Assembly: GCF_000169335.1 (NCBI RefSeq)
Contig: NZ_AAXW01000058.1
Location: 1 to 26,861 of the forward strand
DNA length: 26,861 bases
DNA from: Crocosphaera chwakensis CCY0110
GTDB lineage: Bacteria > Cyanobacteriota > Cyanobacteriia > Cyanobacteriales > Microcystaceae
Direction of reading: 5' to 3'
The notes below the pieces were generated by a model. The model was given only the letters and a program-made list of their open reading frames with translations. It was not told where the DNA came from and did not search any database. Both the position numbers and the translations under genes were made by a program. Each line of letters begins with the position of its first letter. The first letter of the stretch is position 1. Below, one piece after another: positions 4,079-26,560 of the stretch.

Positions 4079-5341
4079 ATGGCTACTAAAAGAATCACGT
4101 TTAGACTTTACCCAAATAAAGAACAAAATGAGAAACTTCATTATTGGAGACGTTTACACAAAGATTTATACAATGCTTGTGTAGTTAATCGAAAAACTCA
4201 ATACAAAAAGTTTGGTAAATCCATTAATTACTTTGACCAACAAAACTCATTACCTGAGTTTAAAAAAGATTGGCCAGAATACAAAGACCTTGGTAGCCAT
4301 GCCCTTCAAGCAACTGTAAAACGGGTTGATTTTGCTTTCCAACGTTTTTTCAAGATTAAATCAGGTTATCCGAAACTAAAGTCTTCAAGAAGATATAAAG
4401 GGTGGACTTATCCTGATAAAGCTGGTTGGAAAATAGACAGTAATGGACATCATGGAAAGTTGACACTTTCTAATTTTGGAACAATAAAGATGAGGGGTAA
4501 AGCAAGAGATTGGGGAACACCAAATACTTGCACTATCATCTTTAAACAAGGAAAATGGTACGCTTCTGTTACTGTTAGTTGTGATCCAAAACGAGAAACA
4601 GGTAAAGAGGCTTGTGGTATCGATTTTGGGACTCATCATGCACTTGCTTTTGACGATGGCACTGTTATTGATAATCCTAGATTTCTCAAACAATCACAGG
4701 ATAAAATCAACAAAACAGCAAAGAAATCTAGAAAGAAACGTGCAGGAAAAAAGGGAGTAAAAGGGTCTAGAAGATGGAAAAAAGCTGTTAGAAAAATCGG
4801 TAAGATTCAATCTTTAGTTGGTCGTCAAAGACAAAACTGGCATCATCAAGTTTCCACACAAATAGTTAGCTGTAATAGCTTGGTGGCAACTGAGAAATTA
4901 AACCTAAAAGGAATGACCAAAAAAGCTAAAAGAGGTAGCAAAAGAAAACGTCAAAAGACTGGATTAAATCGGTCAATTCTTGACGTTGGAATTGGTAACT
5001 TAAAATCATTAATAAAAAGCAAAGTTACCGAAGCAGGTGGGTTTTACATTGAGGTTCCTACTCGAAAAGTTAAGCCATCTCAGACTTGTCCTAATTGTGG
5101 TCATCAAAAGAAAAAGACATTAGCAGAACGCCAGCACAACTGCGAAAAGTGCCTTTATAGTTGCGACAGAGATGTTGCATCAGCCCAGGTGTGTTTAAAC
5201 TGGGCAAGGGGGCAGGAACTGTCCTCTTTAGACGTAGAGTCGCCTAGCTCTACTTTATGCGGAAGCATGAGGCAACTAGGGGCGAAAAAGCACAACAATG
5301 CAAAGAAGCGTCAGAAACATCTAGCTCAACAAAGTGGCTAG
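4079..5341 (+). CDS. tnpB: TnpB (IS605 OrfB) RNA-guided RuvC-type endonuclease
   Basis: 420 aa. RuvC triad contexts are CGIDFGTHH (D), VATEKLNLKGM (E) and CDRDVASAQ (D). Zinc ribbon CPNCGH...CEKCLYSC. No internal stops, so it appears intact. Confidence 0.9.
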   Translation: MATKRITFRLYPNKEQNEKLHYWRRLHKDLYNACVVNRKTQYKKFGKSINYFDQQNSLPEFKKDWPEYKDLGSHALQATVKRVDFAFQRFFKIKSGYPKLKSSRRYKGWTYPDKAGWKIDSNGHHGKLTLSNFGTIKMRGKARDWGTPNTCTIIFKQGKWYASVTVSCDPKRETGKEACGIDFGTHHALAFDDGTVIDNPRFLKQSQDKINKTAKKSRKKRAGKKGVKGSRRWKKAVRKIGKIQSLVGRQRQNWHHQVSTQIVSCNSLVATEKLNLKGMTKKAKRGSKRKRQKTGLNRSILDVGIGNLKSLIKSKVTEAGGFYIEVPTRKVKPSQTCPNCGHQKKKTLAERQHNCEKCLYSCDRDVASAQVCLNWARGQELSSLDVESPSSTLCGSMRQLGAKKHNNAKKRQKHLAQQSG

Positions 5342-17682: not shown

Positions 17683-18414
17683 TTATTCTAGTCCGCCATA
17701 ATTTTTTAGAACTTTAGCAACATTTTGATATCCTTTTTCTAACGCAAGTGTTAGAGAAGTTTTACCATTCAGCATACGAGCATTAACTTCTGCTCCATAT
17801 TGAAGTAAATACAAAACGACTTCTTCTCGTTCTATCCAAGAATTTGATGCCGAGTGTAAAGGAGTAGCTTTATTATTTGCTTTTGCATTAATATCCACTC
17901 CTTGTTCAAGCAATAATTTTATAATATCTTGATGACCATGACTTGCAGCCCAATGTAAAGTAGTATGTCCTTTTAGAGTTTTAGCATGAATATCTGCTCC
18001 ATATTGAATTAATAATCTTACAATTTTGCTTTTACCACTTATTACTGCACCATACATAGGCGAAATTCCTTCCTTATTTTTAGCATTAACATCTATTCCC
18101 TTTTCGAGCAAAAACTCGACTAACTTTTGATTCCTAGATATTGCTGCATGGTATAAAAAATTTGCCCCTTCAGTATCCTTAATATTAATATCAACACCTT
18201 GTTTGAGATATTTTTTGATAGTAGTAATATCTCCATTAATAGCTGCTTCATGTCTTCTATTTATGTAAATCGGTAGTATACTTGGAGCAGAAATAGTTAT
18301 CAAGCCAAACAACCACAAAAAATAGTAAAGCTTATTACCCGAATAGCTTTTGAAGGTTAAAGTAATAAAACAAATAAAAAGTATAAAAGCGAGTGACCGC
18401 GTAAAAAATAACAT
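17683..18414 (-). CDS. Ankyrin-repeat protein with N-terminal membrane anchors
   Basis: 243 aa. Two N-terminal hydrophobic helices, then about 5 ANK repeats (G.T.LH.A...GH..IIKLLLEQGVDINAK and similar). Confidence 0.85.
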   Translation of the reverse strand: MLFFTRSLAFILFICFITLTFKSYSGNKLYYFLWLFGLITISAPSILPIYINRRHEAAINGDITTIKKYLKQGVDINIKDTEGANFLYHAAISRNQKLVEFLLEKGIDVNAKNKEGISPMYGAVISGKSKIVRLLIQYGADIHAKTLKGHTTLHWAASHGHQDIIKLLLEQGVDINAKANNKATPLHSASNSWIEREEVVLYLLQYGAEVNARMLNGKTSLTLALEKGYQNVAKVLKNYGGLE

Positions 18415-19646: not shown

Positions 19647-19677
19647 AGCCCACGGATTCTAACCCGTGGGTTTTCTT
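19647..19677 (+). terminator. Intrinsic-terminator-like hairpin with no upstream plus-strand gene
   Basis: CCCACGG (19649-19655) pairs with CCGTGGG (19664-19670); with A-T and G.U extensions the stem spans 19647-19672. 8-nt loop, followed by TTTTCTT. Confidence 0.35.
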
Positions 19678-19756: not shown

Positions 19757-22549
19757 ATGCGCTGTTTAAACTGCCACCTTGATAACCTTCCCGAAACCAC
19801 CCAACTTTGTCCCAATTGTGGGGCGCAGGTTCTCTCTTTGTTACAAGAAGTGTTACCCCAAGGCACCCAACTGCGATCGCATACATACTGTTTAGACAAT
19901 GCGATGGGAAAAGGCAGTTTCGGCATTACTTATCGCGCTCATCATACCGCCTTAAAGAATCCTGTCGCCATCAAAGAATTCTATCCCGTCGAATATGTCT
20001 CCCGAAATATTGAAACCAAACTTTTAATTATTCCAGCTAAACATCAAGACGTATACAAACGAAGTTTATATCGTTTTTTACAAGAAGGACAGATACTCGC
20101 CAAGTTGAATCATCCTAACGTCGTTAAAGTTAGAGATTTATTTGAAGAAAGGGGTACCGCTTACATTGTCATGGAATTGGTACAGGGTAAAACCTTATTA
20201 CAAGAATTAGAAAATCAGCCTAATAAAAAACTATCTCCTCAAAGAATAGAAAAGTTAATTGAACAGTTAGTTAATGCCTTAACGACTATTCATGAAGCAG
20301 GCATTTATCATCTGGATCTTAAACCCGAAAATATGATCTTGACGCCTACAGATCAGTTAATTTTAATTGATTTTGGAGCAGCTACATTAGCCGATGATGC
20401 TAAACGAAAAAGAACTCGTTCTTTTACCGAATGTTATGCAGCCCCAGAAATTATGTCAGGGGGAGAAGTTGGACCCCAAAGCGATCTATTTGAAGTAGGA
20501 ATGATTCTCCACGAACTATTAACAGGAAAATTACCACCTCCAGCCATGACTCGCGTTTTAGAAACCGATACTTGGCAACCTCAAGGGTTAGACTATCCTT
20601 GGGATATGTTAATCGTTGATGCGTTAAGAATTCAACGAAGCGATCGCAGCCCCACTGTAGACCAATGGTGGGAATCACGAAAGCAAAAAGAAGGAGATAT
20701 TATTAGAATTGATCAAAAAAGCATTGAAAACTTACAAGGGAAATTCATATTACCTTTATTACAACAACAAGGAATGGTTCATAAATTGGGGCAAGGTTGT
20801 ATTAGAAAAGTGATTCCCATTAATCAAAATAAAGTATTAGTGATAGAAGCAGGAGGAGCCTCTTTATTAAATATTAATAATAGAACTACTCATTGGGAAA
20901 TTGACTGTCCTAGTTCCTGGGGAGACGTTAGTAAGAATAAAAAACTATTAGCCTTAGTTTGGCAACAAAACATCTATTTATGGGATTTGACCCAAGGAAA
21001 ATTCTTACGACAATTGCAAGGTCATTCAAAAAAAATTACTGGTCTTGCTTTTAATAAAGATGGCTCTTTATTACTATCAGGAAGCCTCGATGAAACCTTG
21101 ATTATATGGGAAATTAAAACAGGAACAAAACGTCATGAATTATCTGAACCAATGGGACGAATAACGGCTGTTGCTTTTAGCGAAGATAATCAATTTATTG
21201 CCTCTGGTTCCCATACCGGGATTGTTAGAATTTGGGGAGCCATATCTGGTCAAGAATGGCGATGTTTAGAAGGCCATGGAACAGCGATAGAAAGCTTGAT
21301 TTTTAGCTCAGATAGCAAAGTTTTGGCATCAGGAGGACGGGATAAAACCATCCATTTATGGAACGTTACTTCAGGAAAATCTCAACAAGTATTAGAAGGA
21401 CATCAGGACTGGGTAACGGCATTAAGTTTTAACCAAAATGCCGATAAATTAGCTTCTGCATCTACAATTAACGATAAAACTATTCGTATTTGGTCTGTTG
21501 CAAAACAACAACAAACTCAACAACTAAAGGGTCATACAAACAGTATTCAAGCGATTGCTTTTTGTCCCGATGATCGTTATTTGATCTCAGCAGCATCTGA
21601 CAACACTATCCGTCTCTGGGATCGAAAAACTGGAAAAGCAATCAAACAACTACAACAACACACCAATTGGGTGTATAGTGTAGCCTGTAGTCCAGACGGT
21701 CGTTGGATAGCCATCGGATACAATGATTGGACTGTGCGTCTTTGGGATATTATCGAGCAACGAGAAGTTAATTGTCTTGAAGGTCACGAAAGTTCTGTTT
21801 CTAGTGTGGCCTTTTGTCCTGATAATCAACATCTTATCTCCGGCAGTTGGGACGGAACCCTACGAGTTTGGGATATCCATACAGGAAAATGTAAACGTAT
21901 TTTACAGGATCATCAAAACTGGATCAGTAGCGTTGCAGTCAGTCCCAACGGTCAATGGGTTGCATCGGGGGGTTGGGATAAAACCGTCCATCTTTGGGAG
22001 ATTGCTTATAGTTGGACTCAGTTTCAAGCAACTAAACCCACTCGTATTTTACAAGGCCATTTAGAAGATATTGAAGGGGTTGCTTTTAGTCCGAATAGTC
22101 AATTAGTTGCTAGTTGTGGTAATGATAAAACGATTAAAATATGGGAAGTTGTATCTGGTCAACAAGTTCAACAATTAGAAGGTCATAAATATAGTGTGGA
22201 GGATGTAGTTTTTAGTCCTGATGGTCAATTTATTGCTTCAGTGAGTCGAGATAAAACTGTTAGAGTTTGGCACATTATTTCGGGTAAAGAAGTTCATAAA
22301 TTTCAAGGTCACACCAATTATGTTTATTGCGTAGCATTTAGTTTAGACGGTCATTATTTGATTTCAGGAGGAAAAGATAAAATGATTGCAATTTGGGATT
22401 TAATTTCAGGAGAATTAACTCAATTAATGCAAGGACATACCAACGATATTAATAGTATTGCTTTTACTGGAGACGGTTCTTTTTTAGTCTCTGGGGATAA
22501 TGATGGAGTGGTTCGGTTATGGAAACTACAGTTAGAAAATGGGAGTTAG
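19757..22549 (+). CDS. Ser/Thr protein kinase with N-terminal zinc ribbon and about 14 C-terminal WD40 repeats
   Basis: 930 aa. Zinc ribbon CLNCH...CPNCG. Hanks kinase motifs GKGSFGITY, VAIKEF, HLDLKPENM, DFG and APE. Repeated GH...V..VAFS.DG..L.SGS.D.T.R.W units. Confidence 0.9.
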   Translation: MRCLNCHLDNLPETTQLCPNCGAQVLSLLQEVLPQGTQLRSHTYCLDNAMGKGSFGITYRAHHTALKNPVAIKEFYPVEYVSRNIETKLLIIPAKHQDVYKRSLYRFLQEGQILAKLNHPNVVKVRDLFEERGTAYIVMELVQGKTLLQELENQPNKKLSPQRIEKLIEQLVNALTTIHEAGIYHLDLKPENMILTPTDQLILIDFGAATLADDAKRKRTRSFTECYAAPEIMSGGEVGPQSDLFEVGMILHELLTGKLPPPAMTRVLETDTWQPQGLDYPWDMLIVDALRIQRSDRSPTVDQWWESRKQKEGDIIRIDQKSIENLQGKFILPLLQQQGMVHKLGQGCIRKVIPINQNKVLVIEAGGASLLNINNRTTHWEIDCPSSWGDVSKNKKLLALVWQQNIYLWDLTQGKFLRQLQGHSKKITGLAFNKDGSLLLSGSLDETLIIWEIKTGTKRHELSEPMGRITAVAFSEDNQFIASGSHTGIVRIWGAISGQEWRCLEGHGTAIESLIFSSDSKVLASGGRDKTIHLWNVTSGKSQQVLEGHQDWVTALSFNQNADKLASASTINDKTIRIWSVAKQQQTQQLKGHTNSIQAIAFCPDDRYLISAASDNTIRLWDRKTGKAIKQLQQHTNWVYSVACSPDGRWIAIGYNDWTVRLWDIIEQREVNCLEGHESSVSSVAFCPDNQHLISGSWDGTLRVWDIHTGKCKRILQDHQNWISSVAVSPNGQWVASGGWDKTVHLWEIAYSWTQFQATKPTRILQGHLEDIEGVAFSPNSQLVASCGNDKTIKIWEVVSGQQVQQLEGHKYSVEDVVFSPDGQFIASVSRDKTVRVWHIISGKEVHKFQGHTNYVYCVAFSLDGHYLISGGKDKMIAIWDLISGELTQLMQGHTNDINSIAFTGDGSFLVSGDNDGVVRLWKLQLENGS

Positions 22550-22597
22550 GAGTCAGGAGTCAGAAGTCAGAAGTTAGGAGTCAGTAGACAGGAGTTA
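22542..22597. repeat. Heptanucleotide tandem array, 8 units (STRR-like)
   Basis: GGAGTTA GGAGTCA GGAGTCA GAAGTCA GAAGTTA GGAGTCA GTAGACA GGAGTTA. The array starts within the last codons of the kinase gene and fills most of the 79-nt spacer. Confidence 0.8.
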
Positions 22598-22628
22598 CAA
22601 TAAATTTGTTGGTAAATAGTGAAAAATA

Positions 22629-23024
22629 ATGGAACCGTTTACAACTGCAAAAATTCTAGAGTTTGTGATAGGTGCAGTGATTACAATGGGAGTCGAAAAT
22701 CTCCCAACTGCTACTAAAAAACTCTGGCAAACCATCCGTAACCGTCTGCAACATCAACCCGTTGCAAGCACAGCAATAGGGGAAATTGAAGAAAACCATT
22801 CGCCGAACCAAATTCAAAATTTAGCCCCCTTCTTAGACGTGGAAATGCTCAATGATGAGACGTTTAAACAAGAGGTGCAGCAATTAGCGAAAGAAGCCAT
22901 GAATCAAGACAAAGAAACCATTAATATTCATATTGCTAATGCTAACAGTAGTCCCGTTGTCGGTAAACAAGACGGAAGCAATAATACAATTATCGGTACA
23001 CAAGTTAACTTGGGAAAGGAATAG
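22629..23024 (+). CDS. Small helical protein with hydrophobic N-terminal helix and G/N/Q/V/I-rich tail; probable N-terminal module of the downstream NB-ARC protein
   Basis: 131-aa ORF. N-terminus is MEPFTTAKILEFVIGAVITMGV. C-terminus is INIHIANANSSPVVGKQDGSNNTIIGTQVNLGKE. The stop overlaps the open -1 frame that continues into the NB-ARC ORF. Confidence 0.55.
   Translation: MEPFTTAKILEFVIGAVITMGVENLPTATKKLWQTIRNRLQHQPVASTAIGEIEENHSPNQIQNLAPFLDVEMLNDETFKQEVQQLAKEAMNQDKETINIHIANANSSPVVGKQDGSNNTIIGTQVNLGKE
23012..23018 (+). promoter_or_regulatory. Candidate -1 ribosomal frameshift heptamer G_GGA_AAG (alternatively the site of a 1-nt indel)
   Basis: In the zero frame of ORF 22629 the codons read ttG GGA AAG gaa tag. 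The -1 frame reads GGG AAA GGA ATA and is open from 23009 into the NB-ARC ORF. Confidence 0.3.
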
Positions 23025-23116
23025 GGGAAAATGATGTACAACGACTCATAGAATTTTGGCAGGAAAAACCTGATAGAAAACCCACATTATCATCAAGTGT
23101 CATTACATCACCACCT

Positions 23117-24904
23117 GTGGTTAAACCTTGGGTGGATAGGTTAGAAGAAATGACCACTATTCAAAGTTGGATTGATGATAGTAACGTTAATTTACTGGGT
23201 ATTGTTGGGTTAGGTGGAATGGGAAAATCGGCCTTAGCTGCTTATTTTTACAACAATTTTTCTACTCATCAAAAATTTTGGGCTGATGTTAGTTTAAATC
23301 CCGATTTTGCTGCTTTTGCTGAATCCATTATTAAGGGGTTATCAGGAACAGTTAATGCGACGGGTGATGTTAATATTTTAATCGCTGACTTATTCAAGAT
23401 TTTACATCAAAATCCTTGTTTATTGGTGGTGGATAATGTAGAAACATTGTTAGACGAATCAGGAGAATGGCAAAACGAAAATTACGCATCATTCTTTCAG
23501 CGTTGGAAGCAACAAGGACACACCAGTATTTTACTATTGACCACAAGAGATAAACCAAACCTTTATCGAGGAGATAATTATTGGTATTCTCTGGGAAGAT
23601 TCACAGTTGATGAAGGGAAAACATTATTAAAAGCATTACAAATTGAAGGAAGTGACCAAGATTTAGGAAATTTAGTTACTAAAATAGATGGTCATGCTTT
23701 GACCTTAAGATTAGTAGCAGCATACCTCAGAGAATATTGTGATAGTCAACTAAGTCAAATTACAGAATTAGGGTTAGATGAATTTGAATTAATATATAAC
23801 GAAGCATCGGGACTGCATCGCAATAAAACCGATGCACAATTATCATGGATATTAGAACAACATTTAGACCGTTTAAGCGAAAAACAAAGACAGTTTTTAG
23901 TTAATTTATCTGTCTATCGTCAACCCTTTGACGTAACAGCAGCAACCAGAATGTATATCAATGCTAATTTGGTAGAAGGAGAGACAGAAGAACCCATTAA
24001 ACCGATAGAAGTAAAAAAAGAATTACAAAATTTATTCAATCGTTCCTTATTATCTCGTAGCAATAAAAAAGGTTATGACTGTCCCCTATTACTGAAACCC
24101 TATTTACAGAAAAAATATCCCGACTTAACTAACTGTCATCAAATAGCGATTAATTATTATTCATCCATTGTTCCCCCTCCACCTTGGACAAACCTGGATG
24201 AGATACAAGGATATTTAGAGATTTTCTATCATTACTATCAATTGGCAGAATATGACGAAGCATTAGACTATTTGCATTATATTGATGAATTTATGAACCT
24301 TCAGGGATATTATGATCTTCGGGTGAAATATTATTCAGATTTAGTAACGGTATATGAGGAGATAGATGATAAAAATAATTGGAAATATCCTGCTTCTCTT
24401 GGTTCTTTGGGGAATGCTTACGATTCCCTGGGACAATATCAAGAAGCGATAGAATACCATCAACAGTCTTTAGCTATCACTATAGATATTGGCAATAGAA
24501 ACGGTGAAGCATATTCCTATATAGGTTTAGGGAATGTTTACCAATCTCTGAGACAATATCAAGAAGAGATAGAATACTATCAACAGTCTTTAAATATTTT
24601 TATAGAAATAGGAGATAGAAACGGTGAAGCAAATACTTGGTTCAATTTAGGAAATACATTCAAGAAATTAAACCGTAAATCAGAAGCAAAAGAATGTTAT
24701 CAAAACTCTCGTCAATTATCTCAAGCAATGGGACTTGATAGAGATGTCCAAGAGTGTAACAATCAACTCATCAAATTACAAAGAGGATGGTTAGAAAAGA
24801 GTTTTTATTTTATCTTAGCAGTGATTAAGTTTCCTTTTGCTTTAGTTGTGTTTGTTTTATTAGTAATTTGGAGATGGATTAAATCAGTTATCAGTAAACA
24901 GTGA
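23117..24904 (+). CDS. NB-ARC (STAND/NLR-like) P-loop ATPase with TPR repeats and C-terminal TM helix
   Basis: Walker A GIVGLGGMGKSALA, Walker B LLVVDNVE, ILLLTTRD (RNBS-B-like) and GHALTL (GLPL-like). Three TPR units (LGNAYDSLGQYQEAIEYHQQSLAI and similar). Tail FILAVIKFPFALVVFVLLVIW. GTG 23117 has no SD, and the frame is open upstream to 23009 with no ATG. Confidence 0.85.
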   Translation: MVKPWVDRLEEMTTIQSWIDDSNVNLLGIVGLGGMGKSALAAYFYNNFSTHQKFWADVSLNPDFAAFAESIIKGLSGTVNATGDVNILIADLFKILHQNPCLLVVDNVETLLDESGEWQNENYASFFQRWKQQGHTSILLLTTRDKPNLYRGDNYWYSLGRFTVDEGKTLLKALQIEGSDQDLGNLVTKIDGHALTLRLVAAYLREYCDSQLSQITELGLDEFELIYNEASGLHRNKTDAQLSWILEQHLDRLSEKQRQFLVNLSVYRQPFDVTAATRMYINANLVEGETEEPIKPIEVKKELQNLFNRSLLSRSNKKGYDCPLLLKPYLQKKYPDLTNCHQIAINYYSSIVPPPPWTNLDEIQGYLEIFYHYYQLAEYDEALDYLHYIDEFMNLQGYYDLRVKYYSDLVTVYEEIDDKNNWKYPASLGSLGNAYDSLGQYQEAIEYHQQSLAITIDIGNRNGEAYSYIGLGNVYQSLRQYQEEIEYYQQSLNIFIEIGDRNGEANTWFNLGNTFKKLNRKSEAKECYQNSRQLSQAMGLDRDVQECNNQLIKLQRGWLEKSFYFILAVIKFPFALVVFVLLVIWRWIKSVISKQ

Positions 24905-24919
24905 ACAGTTATCAGATGA
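24885..24919. repeat. 35-nt heptamer-based repeat, left copy
   Basis: CAGTTATCAGTAAACAGTGAACAGTTATCAGATGA is 30/35 identical to 25434-25468. It overlaps the stop codon of the NB-ARC gene. Confidence 0.6.
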
Positions 24920-24928
24920 GGATGAAAC

Positions 24929-25234
24929 TTGATAAAATTTGAAATCATGACCCCTCTGGGTTTTACAGTTCGCACTTCCAATAATTATTGGCAAAGATTG
25001 ATAGAAAAACATCCTGACATTGAAGAACTTGAAGACTTAATCATGCAAAGTTTAGCTTCTCCTGATGAAATTCGACAAAGCAGAAGTGATGCCAATGTTT
25101 TATTATTTTATCAATCATATAAACAAAAACGTTGGGTTGTGGCAGTTGCTAAGCGTTTAAATGGAGAGGGATTTCTAATTACTGCTTATCAAACTAATGC
25201 TATTAAAGAAGGAGAAACACTATGGCACAAATAA
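24929..25234 (+). CDS. Hypothetical small protein, putative toxin partner of the DUF2283 gene
   Basis: 101-aa ORF. TTG start has GAGGA 6 nt upstream (alternative ATG 24947). Overlaps the downstream gene by 13 nt, consistent with translational coupling. Layout is loosely similar to the DUF4258 protein at 25742-26050. Confidence 0.5.
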   Translation: MIKFEIMTPLGFTVRTSNNYWQRLIEKHPDIEELEDLIMQSLASPDEIRQSRSDANVLLFYQSYKQKRWVVAVAKRLNGEGFLITAYQTNAIKEGETLWHK

Positions 25235-25446
25235 AAGTTTATTATGAACCCGAAACAGAACTTTTAACTATATTTTGGCAAACTCCTAGGAAAAATCAAA
25301 TCTGTACTGAATTAGATAATGGTATTATTTTAATTCAAGATTCTATTACAAATGAACCGATTGGTGTAGAAATTTTATCTTATCATCCAGGAGATAATCG
25401 TTTAGATAGTGTTAATGTAGAAATGGGTCAAATAAGTTATCAGTGA
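25222..25446 (+). CDS. DUF2283 (YuzE-like) family protein, putative antitoxin
   Basis: 74 aa. Pattern YYEPETELLTIFW...GIILIQDSITNEPIGVEIL is typical of DUF2283. Confidence 0.65.
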   Translation: MAQIKVYYEPETELLTIFWQTPRKNQICTELDNGIILIQDSITNEPIGVEILSYHPGDNRLDSVNVEMGQISYQ

Positions 25447-25468
25447 ACAGTGAATAGTTATTAGATAA
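25434..25468. repeat. 35-nt heptamer-based repeat, right copy
   Basis: AAGTTATCAGTGAACAGTGAATAGTTATTAGATAA. It overlaps the stop codon of the DUF2283 gene. Confidence 0.6.
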
Positions 25469-25505
25469 AAACAAATGAATTTCTAAGACATTTATTTTTG
25501 GATTC

Positions 25506-25739
25506 CTATCCTTTGTAAGCAAAAACATCAACTTGAATAGCTTTAATGGGTTGAGTATTTCCTTGAAGCATTAGACGAACCTTTTCAGCAATTTCACTAC
25601 TAAAAATAACTTCTCCACAACGATCGCAAACCTTAGCAGGAATATTTTCAACCATAACTAACTTTCCTTTAACCTCAAAAGTTTCATTAACGTTTCTTTC
25701 TTGAAAATCCTTTGATCCGCAATTATAACAAACAGACAT
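25506..25739 (-). CDS. YgiT-type (MqsA N-terminal-like) zinc-finger protein, putative antitoxin
   Basis: 77 aa. CYNCG...(26 aa)...CDRCGE, with the VENIPAKVC context typical of the YgiT finger. Confidence 0.7.
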   Translation of the reverse strand: MSVCYNCGSKDFQERNVNETFEVKGKLVMVENIPAKVCDRCGEVIFSSEIAEKVRLMLQGNTQPIKAIQVDVFAYKG

Positions 25740-25741
25740 AT

Positions 25742-26050
25742 TTACCTCCGTTTTGAATAATTAATCCACTCATTTATATCGGGTTCATAAAGAGTAATAA
25801 TAGTTGTTCTACTAGAATCTAATCGAGATGTTTGAATGTGTAATGGTCTATTTTTCTGAGTAAATCCTAATAAAAGACAACTGGGAGTATATTTATCATT
25901 GGGATAGTCTTCAATAATGATAGCATTTTTTCCTGTTTCCATAATTTCTTCTCTAGTAATATTACGTTCAACAATTCGCTTTAAAGCATGACGGGTTAAA
26001 TCAAATTGTCCAGAAACCAGTTGTTGACGAATTTCCTCTAGAGGTTTCAT
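25742..26050 (-). CDS. DUF4258-family protein, putative toxin
   Basis: 102 aa. TRHALKRIVERNITREEI...IIEDYPNDKYTPSCLLLG...PLHIQ pattern. Located 2 nt upstream of the zinc-finger gene. Confidence 0.7.
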   Translation of the reverse strand: MKPLEEIRQQLVSGQFDLTRHALKRIVERNITREEIMETGKNAIIIEDYPNDKYTPSCLLLGFTQKNRPLHIQTSRLDSSRTTIITLYEPDINEWINYSKRR

Positions 26051-26113
26051 TTTTCGATCTCGTTTATACCCACCAAATTATTTATATAAAATATATATTA
26101 ACCCACGCTGACT

Positions 26114-26560
26114 ATGATAAAGAAAACTAGACAAATGACTATTACTTTTAATAGAGACATTTACGGAAGTTTACTTGCTAAGTATCAACCTAAAATTATT
26201 AAAACTGAGGAAGAAAACGAACAAGCGCACCGCAAAGCGGATCTCTTCGAGATCGCCCTTTGTGAAAAACTTTCTCATCTTGAAAATATAAGTTTAGAAG
26301 AATCAGCGTTGTTGGAATTATCAATTACGTTAATTAAAAAATATGAAGCAGAAAATTATCCTATTCCCCAAGCATTACCTCATGAAATATTGGCTCATTT
26401 AATGGAAAGTAGAAACTTAGATGTAAAACAGCTATCAAACATTTTGGGAACAGATTTAATTAATCAAGAAGTATTAACAGGAGAACGAAAAATTACTGAT
26501 AAGGAAGCGATAATATTAAGTAATTTTTTTAATGTGTCTTCTGATTTATTTATAATATAA
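26114..26560 (+). CDS. HigA-type HTH (XRE-like) antitoxin/transcriptional regulator (COG5499-like)
   Basis: C-terminal HTH region ILAHLMESRNLDVKQLSNILGTDLINQEVLTGERKITDKEAIILSNFFNVSSDLF parallels the E. coli HigA C-terminus as I recall it. Start may be ATG 26114 or the internal MTITF. Confidence 0.65.
   Translation: MIKKTRQMTITFNRDIYGSLLAKYQPKIIKTEEENEQAHRKADLFEIALCEKLSHLENISLEESALLELSITLIKKYEAENYPIPQALPHEILAHLMESRNLDVKQLSNILGTDLINQEVLTGERKITDKEAIILSNFFNVSSDLFII

What the first reader, a model, noticed from the sequence alone, without database searches (positions are those of the whole stretch)
19757..24904. NLR-like cell-death/immunity candidate: helical membrane-type N-module plus NB-ARC plus TPR plus C-terminal TM, downstream of a WD40 Ser/Thr kinase and beside a TA island
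The NB-ARC motifs (GLGGMGKS, LLVVDNVE, LLTTRD, GHALTL) with a TPR sensor give a STAND/NLR architecture like that of antiviral STAND (Avs-type) and other bacterial NLR-like proteins.

The 131-aa module in front begins with a hydrophobic amphipathic helix (MEPFTTAKILEFVIGAVITMGV). It ends in a G/N/Q/V/I-rich beta-prone tail (INIHIANANSSPVVGKQDGSNNTIIGTQVNLG). This resembles the layout reported for HeLo/Bell-type membrane-targeting executioner domains and NLR-associated amyloid-like signalling motifs in multicellular bacteria. That resemblance is by composition and architecture only, because I cannot test homology.

A predicted C-terminal TM anchor on an NLR-like protein is unusual. The upstream co-directional kinase-WD40 gene and the four downstream TA modules give a defence-island context.
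Basis: inference. Interest (0 to 1): 0.72.

Follow-up and report, generated by a model that had tools for sequence, protein, structure and literature searches.

The report
Frameshift-linked Bell effector and NLR sensor
A cyanobacterial immune-type sensor (NLR) has no usable start of its own and appears to be made only when ribosomes slip back one base at the end of a small pore-forming-type "Bell" gene, so one stretch of DNA would give both a free killer protein and a sensor-tethered copy of it.

Summary
- a Ser/Thr kinase-WD40 gene (19757-22549);
- a 131-aa ORF (22629-23024);
- an NB-ARC/TPR ORF with a C-terminal TM segment, in the -1 frame (open from 23009; annotated GTG start 23117; ends 24904).

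The small protein belongs to a cyanobacterial family of about 135-aa proteins. Other members carry the published BASS9/BASS10 amyloid motifs of Bell-domain proteins. It has a MEP-type hydrophobic first helix, a confident six-helix model and a disordered tail.

The new point is the junction. In 14 of 14 distinct junctions of this tail type with DNA in hand (small proteins down to 24% identical):
- a top-efficiency slippery heptamer (G_GGA_AAG or A_AAA_AAG) sits in frame 0-1 codon before the stop;
- the NLR ORF is always -1 and open across the stop.

Across 11 tabulated junctions no start codon is conserved. In relatives the first one lies inside the Walker A motif. The linker is under purifying selection only in the NLR frame.

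Best reading: programmed -1 frameshifting makes free Bell plus a 758-aa Bell-NLR fusion, replacing the duplicated amyloid motif of two-gene Bell/NLR systems. The kinase is not conserved with the pair. All evidence is computational.

The parts
22629..23024 (+). Small ORF, the 0-frame product (131 aa). It is a Bell-type helical domain (residues 1-106) followed by a disordered G/N/Q/V/I-rich tail (residues 107-131).
   Evidence: ORF and translation. Homologues: 131-141-aa stand-alone orthologues in Crocosphaera; 61 representative clusters and 344 proteins in cyanobacteria. Family members carry the published BASS9/BASS10 strings. AF2: pLDDT 83, helices 6-106, tail below 50.
23012..23018 (+). Slippery heptamer G_GGA_AAG in the 0 frame (ttG GGA AAG). 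This is the predicted -1 frameshift site.
   Evidence: Sequence. An in-frame heptamer (G_GGA_AAG or A_AAA_AAG) is present at the same place in all 14 distinct junctions. Background frequency is about 4-8e-4 per codon. These are two of the three most efficient -1 motifs in E. coli (PMC4066793).
23022..23024 (+). 0-frame stop codon (TAG), one codon after the heptamer.
   Evidence: The stop lies 0 or 3 nt after the heptamer in every junction.
23018..23128 (+). Trans-frame linker in the -1 frame (GIGENDVQRLIEFWQEKPDRKPTLSSSVITSPPVVKP). It contains no ATG or TTG and a single GTG (23117, the annotated start).
   Evidence: Median dN/dS is 0.47 in the NLR frame against 1.15 and 1.60 in the other two frames. 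All indels are multiples of three.
23129..24142 (+). NB-ARC nucleotide-binding oligomerisation module. It runs from the WVDRLEEM motif through Walker A (GLGGMGKS), Walker B (LLVVDNVE), LLTTRD and GHALTL to the winged-helix region (LSVYRQPF) and a spacer.
   Evidence: Pfam NB-ARC E 1.2e-8. 78% identity to the orthologue in L001.
24143..24802 (+). TPR sensor region. It has fewer repeats than in relatives (628-aa against 921-aa -1 ORF) and contains a 120-nt tandem unit at 24406-24631.
   Evidence: Pfam TPR_12 E 2.5e-28. PADLOC TPR model, residues 379-601. Tandem repeat. Comparison with L001.
24803..24871 (+). C-terminal hydrophobic segment FYFILAVIKFPFALVVFVLLVIW, a predicted tail-anchor TM helix. 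It is followed by a basic tail to the stop at 24902-24904.
   Evidence: Kyte-Doolittle mean up to 2.96. Conserved in L001 and P0048. Absent from NLR homologues of other genera.
19757..22549 (+). Co-directional zinc-ribbon/Ser-Thr kinase/WD40 gene. It is a neighbour, not a conserved component.
   Evidence: Pfam Pkinase E 1.2e-42 and WD40. Present in L001-L003. Absent upstream of the pair in L012 and in the other loci whose upstream side is visible: L015, L016, L018, L022.

Best explanation
The locus is a Bell-effector/NLR cell-death module. Its two parts are joined at the level of translation by programmed -1 ribosomal frameshifting.

Shown by the sequence:
- Ribosomes translating the small ORF (22629-23024) reach G_GGA_AAG at 23012-18, one codon before the stop.
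- Termination there gives the free 131-aa protein: a Bell helical domain plus a disordered tail.
- A one-base backward slip would carry ribosomes into the -1 frame and give a 758-aa protein: Bell, tail, linker, NB-ARC, TPR and a C-terminal TM segment.

Inferred from conservation:
- The NLR part is normally made only in this way, because no start codon is conserved ahead of the nucleotide-binding domain.
- The free effector is in large excess over the sensor. Phage lambda gpG:gpGT is 30:1 by low-level -1 frameshifting.

Inferred by analogy with HET-S/NWD2, Bab/Agp and CC-NLR resistosomes:
- A trigger, probably a phage protein, binds the TPR region.
- NB-ARC oligomerisation clusters the tethered Bell-tail modules at the membrane.
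- These clustered modules seed recruitment of the free Bell-tail copies through the shared tail.
- The hydrophobic first helix is released and permeabilises the membrane, killing the infected cell.

On this reading the frameshift replaces the second, NLR-side copy of the amyloid motif found in ordinary two-gene Bell/NLR pairs.
For: Frame geometry.
1. The NLR ORF is in the -1 frame and is open across the small ORF's stop in the window and in every junction of this tail type examined (14 distinct junctions; small proteins down to 24% identical to the window's).
2. An in-frame X_XXY_YYZ heptamer lies 0-1 codon before the stop in all 14. It switches between G_GGA_AAG and A_AAA_AAG while the surrounding residues change (LGKE, VKKD, NEKK, TKKD, VKK, LGK, VGKD, HEKK, EKKK). 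Chance expectation is about 1e-3 per ORF end.
3. These heptamers are among the three most efficient -1 sites in E. coli (PMC4066793). G_GGA_AAG is described as highly shift-prone (PMC5009743).

No independent start for the NLR.
4. In 11 tabulated junctions the first ATG/GTG/TTG in the NLR frame lies 13-67 codons downstream, at non-conserved places. In L015 and L018 it is the TTG codon for the Leu of the Walker A motif GLGG.
5. Gene callers start many NLR homologues from other cyanobacteria inside the Walker A motif: MGIQGLGGVGKS, MGGVGKS, MGKS.

The linker is translated in the NLR frame.
6. Median dN/dS is 0.47 in the NLR frame against 1.15 and 1.60 in the other frames. The following NB-ARC codons give 0.38. 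All indels are in frame.

The fused architecture exists naturally.
7. P0048 is an in-frame fusion of Bell, NB-ARC and the same TM tail. P0076 is Bell, tail, linker and NB-ARC in frame, keeps gaG_GGA_AAG, and was found in three samples.

Identity of the small protein and the missing second motif.
8. The family profile retrieves proteins carrying the published Bell-side BASS10, BASS9 and PCC 7822 motifs. Its N-terminus MEPFT fits the 'MEPIS' region described for Bell, Hell and Avast2. The AF2 model is a helical bundle with a disordered tail.
9. Loci of this type have no second copy of the tail on the NLR. Smith-Waterman scores equal shuffles, whereas a published BASS10 pair scores 67 against 17. 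A family member with a classical BASS10 tail (L019) has neither the heptamer nor a -1 ORF.
Against: - No fusion protein has been observed. Everything here is comparative sequence analysis.
- No conserved stimulatory RNA structure was found 3' of the heptamer: RNAalifold gave 0 pairs, and the single-sequence fold has z 0.38. I saw no upstream SD-like element by eye. Without stimulators these heptamers shift only about 0.3% in E. coli reporters.
- In the Crocosphaera clade a conserved ATG (the M of RLEEM, 20 residues before the P-loop) could allow independent initiation of a slightly truncated NLR. The window also has GTG 23117.
- Shiftiness of AAG depends on the tRNA-Lys set, which I could not check for this genome. 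The window holds no tRNA gene.
- Membership in the Bell family rests on profile similarity and motif strings, not on a curated model. Foldseek against the PDB found nothing significant.
- The window's own tail is not detected by my ad hoc BASS10 HMM.
- Defence function, membrane activity and amyloid templating are all inferred by analogy.
Confidence: 0.7

Rival explanations
1. Ordinary two-gene Bell/NLR pair. The small protein and the NLR are translated independently. The NLR starts at GTG 23117, at the conserved Met of RLEEM, or at a non-canonical codon. The heptamer is a by-product of Lys/Gly-rich C-termini.
For: - Public annotation calls two genes (P0001, and P0075 starting MVKPWVDR...).
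- No stimulatory RNA element was found.
- Heptamers alone shift only about 0.3% in E. coli.
- A Met 20 residues before the P-loop is conserved within the Crocosphaera clade.
- Two-gene Bell/NLR pairs are the published norm (Dyrka et al.).
Against: - There is no conserved start. In L015 and L018, and in many homologues, the first start is inside Walker A.
- The Met of RLEEM is Ile in the other clades, which read EEI.
- The linker upstream of every candidate start is under purifying selection in the NLR frame only.
- The frame relation is -1 and the heptamer is next to the stop in 14 of 14 junctions, despite indels in both tail and linker.
- The NLR lacks the N-terminal motif that lets a separate NLR talk to a Bell protein.
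Confidence: 0.17
2. Decayed gene. This is an ancestral in-frame Bell-NB-ARC fusion (like P0048 or P0076) broken by a frameshift mutation or an assembly error, so the NLR part is a pseudogene.
For: - In-frame fusions exist.
- The window's NLR has fewer TPR units than relatives.
- One paralogue (L015) is truncated at 250 aa.
Against: - The same split is found in at least 14 distinct sequences from isolates, MAGs and metagenomes.
- Long intact NLR ORFs (628-982 codons) with low dN/dS follow the split.
- The break is always at a slippery heptamer directly before the stop. Random frameshift mutations would not do this.
Confidence: 0.03
3. Three-gene kinase-coupled system. The upstream Ser/Thr kinase-WD40 protein is the sensor or regulator of the Bell/NLR pair, for example by phosphorylating the NLR or the effector. 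It does not exclude the frameshift.
For: - The kinase gene is co-directional, 79 nt upstream, with no terminator-like site in between.
- The triad is conserved in the closest Crocosphaera genomes.
- The kinase domain resembles kinases of defence systems: PADLOC PD-T4-6 and mad6 at E 4.8e-46. These hits cover only the generic kinase domain.
Against: - The kinase is absent from the orthologous locus L012, where an oppositely oriented oxidoreductase gene lies upstream.
- It is absent from the other related loci whose upstream side is visible: L015, L016, L018, L022.
- NCBIfam kinase hits are all far below their cut-offs.
Confidence: 0.1

Closest known systems
Bell-domain/NLR amyloid-signalling gene pairs with BASS motifs (Dyrka et al. 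2020, bioRxiv 10.1101/2020.01.06.895854)
   Same: - A roughly 100-aa helical Bell domain with a hydrophobic first helix and an acidic residue at position 2.
- A short disordered G/N/Q-rich C-terminal tail.
- The gene lies immediately upstream of an NB-ARC/TPR gene.
- The host range is cyanobacterial.
- Relatives in the same profile family carry the published BASS9/BASS10 motifs.
   Different: - The NLR has no N-terminal copy of the motif and no start codon of its own.
- It lies in the -1 frame behind a conserved slippery heptamer.
- A pair-based motif screen cannot detect such loci. The tail strings I searched for (VVGKQ, GGTHNH, VGKAE) are absent from the published table.
Bab/Agp abortive-infection system of E. 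coli (Ibarlosa et al. 2024, bioRxiv 10.1101/2024.11.07.622273; Bab structure PDB 9H9V)
   Same: - A small helical executioner with a conserved 'MEPIS'-type N-terminal helix and a C-terminal amyloid motif.
- It is activated by an adjacent sensor.
- This is the only experimental evidence that a Bell-type domain kills cells in phage defence.
   Different: [quoted passage not shown]
- Babybell is about 80 aa.
- No sequence or Foldseek match to this protein was found.
Phage lambda tail assembly chaperones gpG/gpGT (programmed -1 frameshift)
   Same: - A short abundant protein and a rare C-terminally extended fusion are made from one start.
[quoted passage not shown]
- The ratio is fixed (30:1).
- Both products share the same N-terminal domain and act in one assembly (PMC5009743).
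- From my own recollection, not checked here: the lambda site is also G_GGA_AAG and needs no stimulatory RNA structure.
   Different: The biology is unrelated (virion assembly). The extension there is a small T domain, not a roughly 630-aa STAND NTPase sensor.
NLRs with an in-frame N-terminal Bell/HeLo-like killing domain (Avast2, bNACHT02/11/23; plant CC-NLRs such as ZAR1; fungal HeLo-NLRs)
   Same: The predicted 758-aa product has this architecture: a membrane-targeting helical N-domain, then a NOD, then repeats. Natural in-frame versions exist in this family (P0048, P0076).
   Different: Here the fusion depends on recoding, a free copy of the N-domain is also made, and the NLR carries a C-terminal TM anchor.

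Membership tests
STAND / NLR-like NTPase (NB-ARC type) | NB-ARC domain with Walker A, Walker B and downstream signature motifs | tested here: met
   Pfam PF00931 E 1.2e-8, above its cut-off. GLGGMGKS, LLVVDNVE and LLTTRD are read directly in the translation.
STAND / NLR-like NTPase (NB-ARC type) | C-terminal repeat sensor (TPR, WD40 or LRR) | tested here: met
   TPR_12 E 2.5e-28. PADLOC TPR model E 2.7e-33.
Antiviral STAND (Avs) families as modelled in PADLOC | Match to an Avs protein model | tested here: not met
   There is no Avs hit for the NLR ORF or the small ORF. Only a generic TPR model matches.
Bell domain (Dyrka et al. 2020) | All-alpha domain of about 100 aa whose first helix is hydrophobic, with an acidic residue at position 2-3 | tested here: met
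   The protein starts MEPFTTAKILEFVIGAVITMGV. The AF2 model has helices over residues 6-106, pLDDT 83, pTM 0.72. The feature is described.
Bell domain (Dyrka et al. 2020) | Sequence homology to published Bell proteins | tested here: met
   This is indirect. The authors' HMM was not available. A profile of the window's family retrieves proteins (E 1e-4 to 1e-12) whose tails carry the published Bell-side BASS10, BASS9 and Cyanothece PCC 7822 motifs at the published positions.
Bell domain (Dyrka et al. 2020) | Gene adjacent to and co-linear with an NLR-architecture gene | tested here: met
Bell / HeLo / MLKL membrane-targeting superfamily | Detectable structural similarity to a solved member (Bab 9H9V, HET-S HeLo, MLKL 4HB, ZAR1 CC) | tested here: not met
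   The best Foldseek PDB match has E 1.2 and there are no relevant hits. A PDB sequence profile search gave nothing below E 0.27. The authors themselves report very low structural conservation.
BASS amyloid-signalling pair | Recognisable BASS motif at the C-terminus of the effector | tested here: inconclusive
   An ad hoc HMM built from 12 published BASS10 instances hits 10 family members at E of 0.003 or better. One of these is the frameshift-type P0074. It matches only a fragment (TVVGKQEAENL, E about 0.2) in close relatives, and does not match the window's protein at all.
BASS amyloid-signalling pair | Matching motif at the N-terminus of the neighbouring NLR | tested here: not met
   The Smith-Waterman score of tail against NLR N-terminus equals shuffles in the window, L001, L013 and L021. 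A published pair scores 67 against 17.
BASS amyloid-signalling pair | Amyloid or prion-like assembly of the motif | not testable with these tools
   This needs ThT, EM or ssNMR, or in vivo foci assays.
Programmed -1 ribosomal frameshift | X_XXY_YYZ heptamer in the 0 frame inside the overlap of the two ORFs | tested here: met
   G_GGA_AAG at 23012-23018.
Programmed -1 ribosomal frameshift | Site and frame relation conserved across diverged homologues | tested here: met
   14 of 14 distinct junctions, with the heptamer switching between G_GGA_AAG and A_AAA_AAG. Background frequency.
Programmed -1 ribosomal frameshift | The downstream ORF lacks its own initiation site, and the trans-frame region is under coding constraint | tested here: met
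   The first start codon varies in position or lies inside Walker A. Median dN/dS is 0.47 in the NLR frame against 1.15 and 1.60 in the other frames. Caveat: an ATG 20 residues before the P-loop is conserved within the Crocosphaera clade.
Programmed -1 ribosomal frameshift | Stimulatory element (3' hairpin or pseudoknot, or 5' SD-like sequence) | tested here: not met
   RNAalifold gave 0 conserved pairs. The single-sequence fold has z 0.38. There is no Rfam hit. The adjacent stop codon is the only conserved neighbouring feature.
Programmed -1 ribosomal frameshift | Trans-frame protein observed | not testable with these tools
   This needs proteomics, western blots or reporter assays.

The most novel reading that the evidence does not exclude
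A conserved programmed -1 frameshift lets one cistron encode both the seed and the substrate of an immune cell-death switch.
- Rare slipping ribosomes make a membrane-anchored NLR that carries the Bell killer domain and its prion-like tail.
- Most ribosomes make the free Bell-tail protein.
- NLR oligomerisation nucleates the free copies through the identical tail.
- Recoding therefore replaces the duplicated amyloid motif of two-gene systems and fixes the ratio of sensor to effector.

This would be a recoding event in an NLR-type immune receptor, and a lineage-wide one, seen in Crocosphaera and in uncultured relatives. NLR homologues in Xenococcaceae, Hyella, Symploca and Merismopedia whose called start lies in or just before Walker A hint that it is wider.
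Probability: 0.5. Interest if true: 0.88.

Novelty: new variant of a known kind. Interest (0 to 1): 0.78.

Why it matters
- **Unannotated recoding.** It would add NLR-type immune sensors to the short list of cellular, non-mobile bacterial genes that use programmed frameshifting, alongside dnaX, copA and csoS2. Current annotation starts these NLRs at arbitrary internal codons, some of them inside the P-loop.
- **Sensor-to-effector coupling.** It offers a simple answer to how a sensor couples to a separate executioner without a second copy of the signalling motif, and how a dangerous sensor is kept rare relative to its effector.
- **Missed systems.** Motif-pair screens for bacterial amyloid signalling cannot find such loci, so the count of Bell/NLR systems in cyanobacteria is probably too low.
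- **Testability.** The junction is a compact object for experiment. One synonymous change to the heptamer, or one base inserted, separates the free and fused products.

Tried and rejected
**Searches that gave nothing**
- Pfam, NCBIfam and PADLOC on the small protein: no hit.
- Pfam on all 58 family members: only noise, best HetE-N in 4 members at E 0.003.
- PDB sequence profile search: nothing below E 0.27.
- Foldseek of the AF2 model against the PDB: best E 1.2, no HeLo, Bab or MLKL hit.
- Conserved RNA structure 3' of the heptamer: none.
- Rfam and tRNA scans of the window: empty.
- Cluster look-up for organism names of the distant small proteins: no names.
- Literature searches combining frameshifting with NLR/STAND, NB-ARC plus cyanobacteria, and Bell domain: no relevant paper in the held library. 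The GeneTack survey text does not mention TPR or NB-ARC.

**Readings considered and rejected**
- A paired amyloid motif on the NLR N-terminus: absent.
- Transcriptional slippage: the G_GGA_AAG variants have no homopolymer run long enough (inspection of the junction sequences).
- Sequencing error or pseudogene: the split recurs in many independent assemblies with long intact ORFs.
- The kinase-WD40 gene as a core component: not conserved with the pair.
- A large defence island: upstream genes are ordinary, namely dihydroorotate dehydrogenase, phytase-like, rhodanese, serpin, a solute-binding protein, one TnpB and an ankyrin protein.

Full report
**1. What is at the coordinates**

The window is a contig of Crocosphaera chwakensis, a unicellular diazotrophic cyanobacterium (source names). 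The span 19757-24904 holds three co-directional ORFs.

| ORF | Coordinates | Size | Content |
|---|---|---|---|
| Kinase-WD40 | 19757-22549 | 930 aa | zinc ribbon, Ser/Thr kinase, WD40 (Pfam Pkinase E 1.2e-42; WD40) |
| Small ORF | 22629-23024 | 131 aa | no Pfam, NCBIfam or PADLOC hit |
| NLR ORF | open from 23009; annotated from GTG 23117; ends 24904 | 631 codons open | NB-ARC E 1.2e-8; TPR_12 E 2.5e-28 |

- The C-terminal hydrophobic segment is strong, with a Kyte-Doolittle mean up to 2.96. It is conserved in orthologues.
- The NB-ARC ORF is in the -1 frame relative to the small ORF, and it is open across that ORF's stop codon.

**2. The small protein is a Bell-type effector**

- Close homologues are 131-141-aa stand-alone proteins of Crocosphaera.
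- A profile search over 1.8 billion representatives found 61 clusters, almost all 90-180 aa.
- A second profile search found 344 proteins. Every named one is cyanobacterial: Crocosphaera, Pseudanabaena, Phormidesmis, Phormidium.
- Members of this family carry motifs listed in Table S2 of Dyrka et al. 2020 for Bell-domain proteins, at residues of about 104-135:
  - BASS10 (for example NIQVNANAYNDSTVKQVGKIDANQV);
  - BASS9 (NAKGWQTKVEGGTAYI-like);
  - the Cyanothece PCC 7822 motif.
- An ad hoc BASS10 HMM hits ten members at E of 0.003 or better.
- The window's protein starts MEPFT. This fits the hydrophobic, acidic-at-position-2 first helix of Bell domains and the 'MEPIS' region of Bab, Hell and Avast2.
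- AlphaFold2 with the family alignment gives pLDDT 83 and pTM 0.72, helices across residues 6-106, and an unstructured tail over residues 108-131.
- Foldseek against the PDB and a PDB sequence search found nothing significant. Family membership therefore rests on sequence, motifs and gene context.
- The window's own tail is at best a diverged BASS10 relative.

**3. The junction**

I compared the window with every related locus I could fetch (L001-L024). In 14 distinct junctions the same four things hold. The junctions are the window, L001, L005, L006, L007, L010, L012, L013, L014, L015, L017, L018, L020 and L021. Their small proteins are down to 24% identical to the window's.

a. The NB-ARC ORF is in the -1 frame.
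b. It is open across the small ORF's stop. L017 ends 30 nt after the stop but is open that far.
c. A canonical X_XXY_YYZ heptamer lies in the 0 frame.
d. The 0-frame stop follows the heptamer after 0 or 1 codon.

The heptamer is G_GGA_AAG in the window (23012-23018), L010, L014, L015 and L018. It is A_AAA_AAG in the other nine. The encoded C-termini differ (LGKE, VKKD, NEKK, TKKD, VKK, LGK, VGKD, HEKK, EKKK), yet the pattern is kept.

- In-frame occurrences of these two heptamers run at about 4-8e-4 per codon in the same genomes.
- According to Sharma et al. 2014 they are two of the three most efficient -1 motifs in E. coli.
- Atkins et al. 2016 call G_GGA_AAG highly shift-prone.
- A family member with a classical BASS10 tail ending VSF* (L019) has no heptamer and no -1 continuation.

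**4. The NLR has no start of its own**

- In the 11 tabulated junctions the first ATG/GTG/TTG in the NLR frame lies 13, 33, 33, 39, 44, 45, 45, 45, 48, 63 or 67 codons after the heptamer.
- In L015 and L018 it is the TTG codon for the Leu of the Walker A motif GLGG.
- Among NLR homologues of Xenococcaceae, Hyella, Symploca, Merismopedia and others, gene callers begin many proteins at MGIQGLGGVGKS, MGGVGKS or MGKS. That is inside the P-loop.
- The 37-codon linker (GIGENDVQRLIEFWQEKPDRKPTLSSSVITSPPVVKP) is conserved as protein, and its indels are all multiples of three.
- Linker dN/dS:

| Region and frame | Median dN/dS |
|---|---|
| Linker, NLR frame | 0.47 |
| Linker DNA, other two frames | 1.15 and 1.60 |
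| Following NB-ARC codons | 0.38 |
| Small ORF | 0.18 |

- The linker is therefore translated in the NLR frame although nothing conserved can initiate it.
- One caveat: within the Crocosphaera clade the Met of RLEEM, 20 residues before the P-loop, is conserved and could serve as an internal start. In the other clades that position is Ile.

**5. Fused versions exist**

- P0048 (658 aa) is an in-frame fusion of Bell, NB-ARC and the same C-terminal TM tail.
- P0076 is an in-frame fusion of Bell, tail, linker and NB-ARC. It was found on contigs from three samples and still carries gaG_GGA_AAG. Its stop has been lost and the frame restored further on, and the ORF ends after the winged-helix region.
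- P0088 has a TIR domain fused in frame through the same linker.
- So the predicted trans-frame product has a natural architecture, and the position in front of the linker is an effector slot.

**6. No second motif**

- In two-gene Bell/NLR systems the NLR N-terminus repeats the effector's tail.
- Here the tail and the NLR N-terminal 65-70 residues are no more similar than shuffles. A published BASS10 pair scores 67 against 17.
- The frameshift product would itself carry the tail, which removes the need for a second copy.

**7. Stimulators and efficiency**

- I found no conserved RNA structure 3' of the site and no Rfam match.
- By eye there is no conserved SD-like element 5' of it.
- The adjacent stop codon is the only conserved neighbouring feature.
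- Without stimulators these heptamers gave about 0.3% in E. coli reporters.
- Lambda gpG/gpGT is maintained at 30:1 by low-level -1 frameshifting.
- A low yield suits a sensor that should be rare relative to its effector. This is an inference.

**8. Mechanism proposed**

| Status | Statement |
|---|---|
| Shown | the frame geometry, the conserved heptamer, coding constraint on the linker, the absence of a conserved start, the domain content, and fused relatives |
| Inferred | -1 frameshifting yields a 758-aa protein of Bell, tail, linker, NB-ARC, TPR and TM, alongside an excess of free 131-aa Bell-tail protein |
| By analogy | a trigger bound by the TPR region oligomerises the NB-ARC; clustered tethered Bell-tail modules recruit free copies through the shared tail; helix 1 inserts into the membrane; the cell dies before phage release (HET-S/NWD2, Bab/Agp, and CC-NLR resistosomes) |

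The C-terminal TM anchor would place the sensor at the membrane where the effector acts. That anchor is specific to the Crocosphaera clade and P0048.

**9. Context**

- The kinase-WD40 gene is adjacent in the closest genomes. It is absent from the orthologous locus L012, and from L015, L016, L018 and L022 where the upstream side is visible. I treat it as a neighbour.
- Downstream lie two TA-like pairs and one doubtful HTH ORF.
- The TA cassettes differ between strains at the same position: HicAB and HepT/MNT in L001, HicAB in L012.
- Upstream genes are ordinary chromosomal genes, plus one TnpB and an ankyrin protein.
- No terminator-like site separates the three ORFs. A hairpin lies upstream of the kinase gene at 19647-19672.

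**10. Novelty**

- Bell/NLR pairs, BASS motifs and NLRs with in-frame Bell-like N-termini are known.
- A recoding link between effector and NLR did not appear in any paper retrieved from the held library.
- Public annotation treats the two ORFs as unrelated genes.
- I rate this a new variant of a known kind. It is well supported by comparative sequence evidence and untested experimentally.

Noticed in passing
window 22542-22595 and 24883-24915: Two heptanucleotide tandem arrays sit exactly at gene ends. GGAGTCA x7.7 spans the kinase stop and the intergenic region before the small ORF. ATCAGTT x4.7 spans the NLR stop. To my recollection they resemble cyanobacterial STRR-type repeats.
   Followed up: no
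window 23031-23051: A tiny 0-frame ORF (ATG ATG TAC AAC GAC TCA TAG) follows the small ORF's stop. Its ATG and TAG recur at the same place in the Crocosphaera-clade loci (sequences). This may simply reflect the conserved -1 frame peptide NDVQRLIE.
   Followed up: partly
window 24143-24811 compared with L001 8420-11182: The window's NLR has far fewer TPR units than its orthologues: 628 against 921-982 codons. It keeps the NB-ARC (78% identity) and the TM tail. A 120-nt unit is repeated at 24406-24631 with 83% matches. This is the repeat-number variation typical of NLR sensors.
   Followed up: partly
L015 4001-5367: A second Bell/NLR copy lies in another Crocosphaera assembly (small protein 48% identical). 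It has G_GGA_AAG directly followed by TAG. Its NLR ORF ends after 250 codons counted from its first start, the TTG codon for the Leu of Walker A GLGG (320 codons open in frame). It carries an SPTSPASPASPTSPASPS insertion after the P-loop, so it is probably decaying.
   Followed up: partly
P0088 (771 aa) and P0109 (266 aa): P0088 has a TIR domain fused in frame to the same linker and NB-ARC, which is effector swapping at the slot occupied here by Bell. P0109, from a Crocosphaera MAG, joins the Bell helical domain directly to the TPR region, skipping the tail and NB-ARC. It may be a deletion variant or a misassembly.
   Followed up: no
window 24929-26560; L001 11182-12801; L012 11371-11837: The stretch between the NLR gene and the conserved AMP-binding gene holds different TA cassettes in different strains. 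The window has DUF4258-like/DUF2283-like and MqsA-YgiT/DUF4258. L001 has HicAB, HepT/MNT and HicAB. L012 has HicAB. It looks like a small variable hotspot.
   Followed up: partly
window 19757-22549: The kinase begins with a CxxC...CxxC zinc ribbon. It has HLD instead of HRD in the catalytic loop (YHLDLKPEN) and keeps VAIK, DFG and APE. PADLOC kinase models of PD-T4-6 and mad6 match only the generic kinase domain.
   Followed up: no
window 4079-5341 and 17683-18414; L001 1956-3470: The window holds a TnpB-type ORF (OrfB_IS605 plus Cas12f-like TNB) and an ankyrin-repeat protein. Relatives carry a group II intron reverse transcriptase a few kb upstream of the kinase gene.
   Followed up: no
window 19647-19672: A GC-rich hairpin with T runs on both sides looks like a bidirectional terminator. 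It lies between the 113-aa minus-strand ORF and the kinase gene.
   Followed up: no
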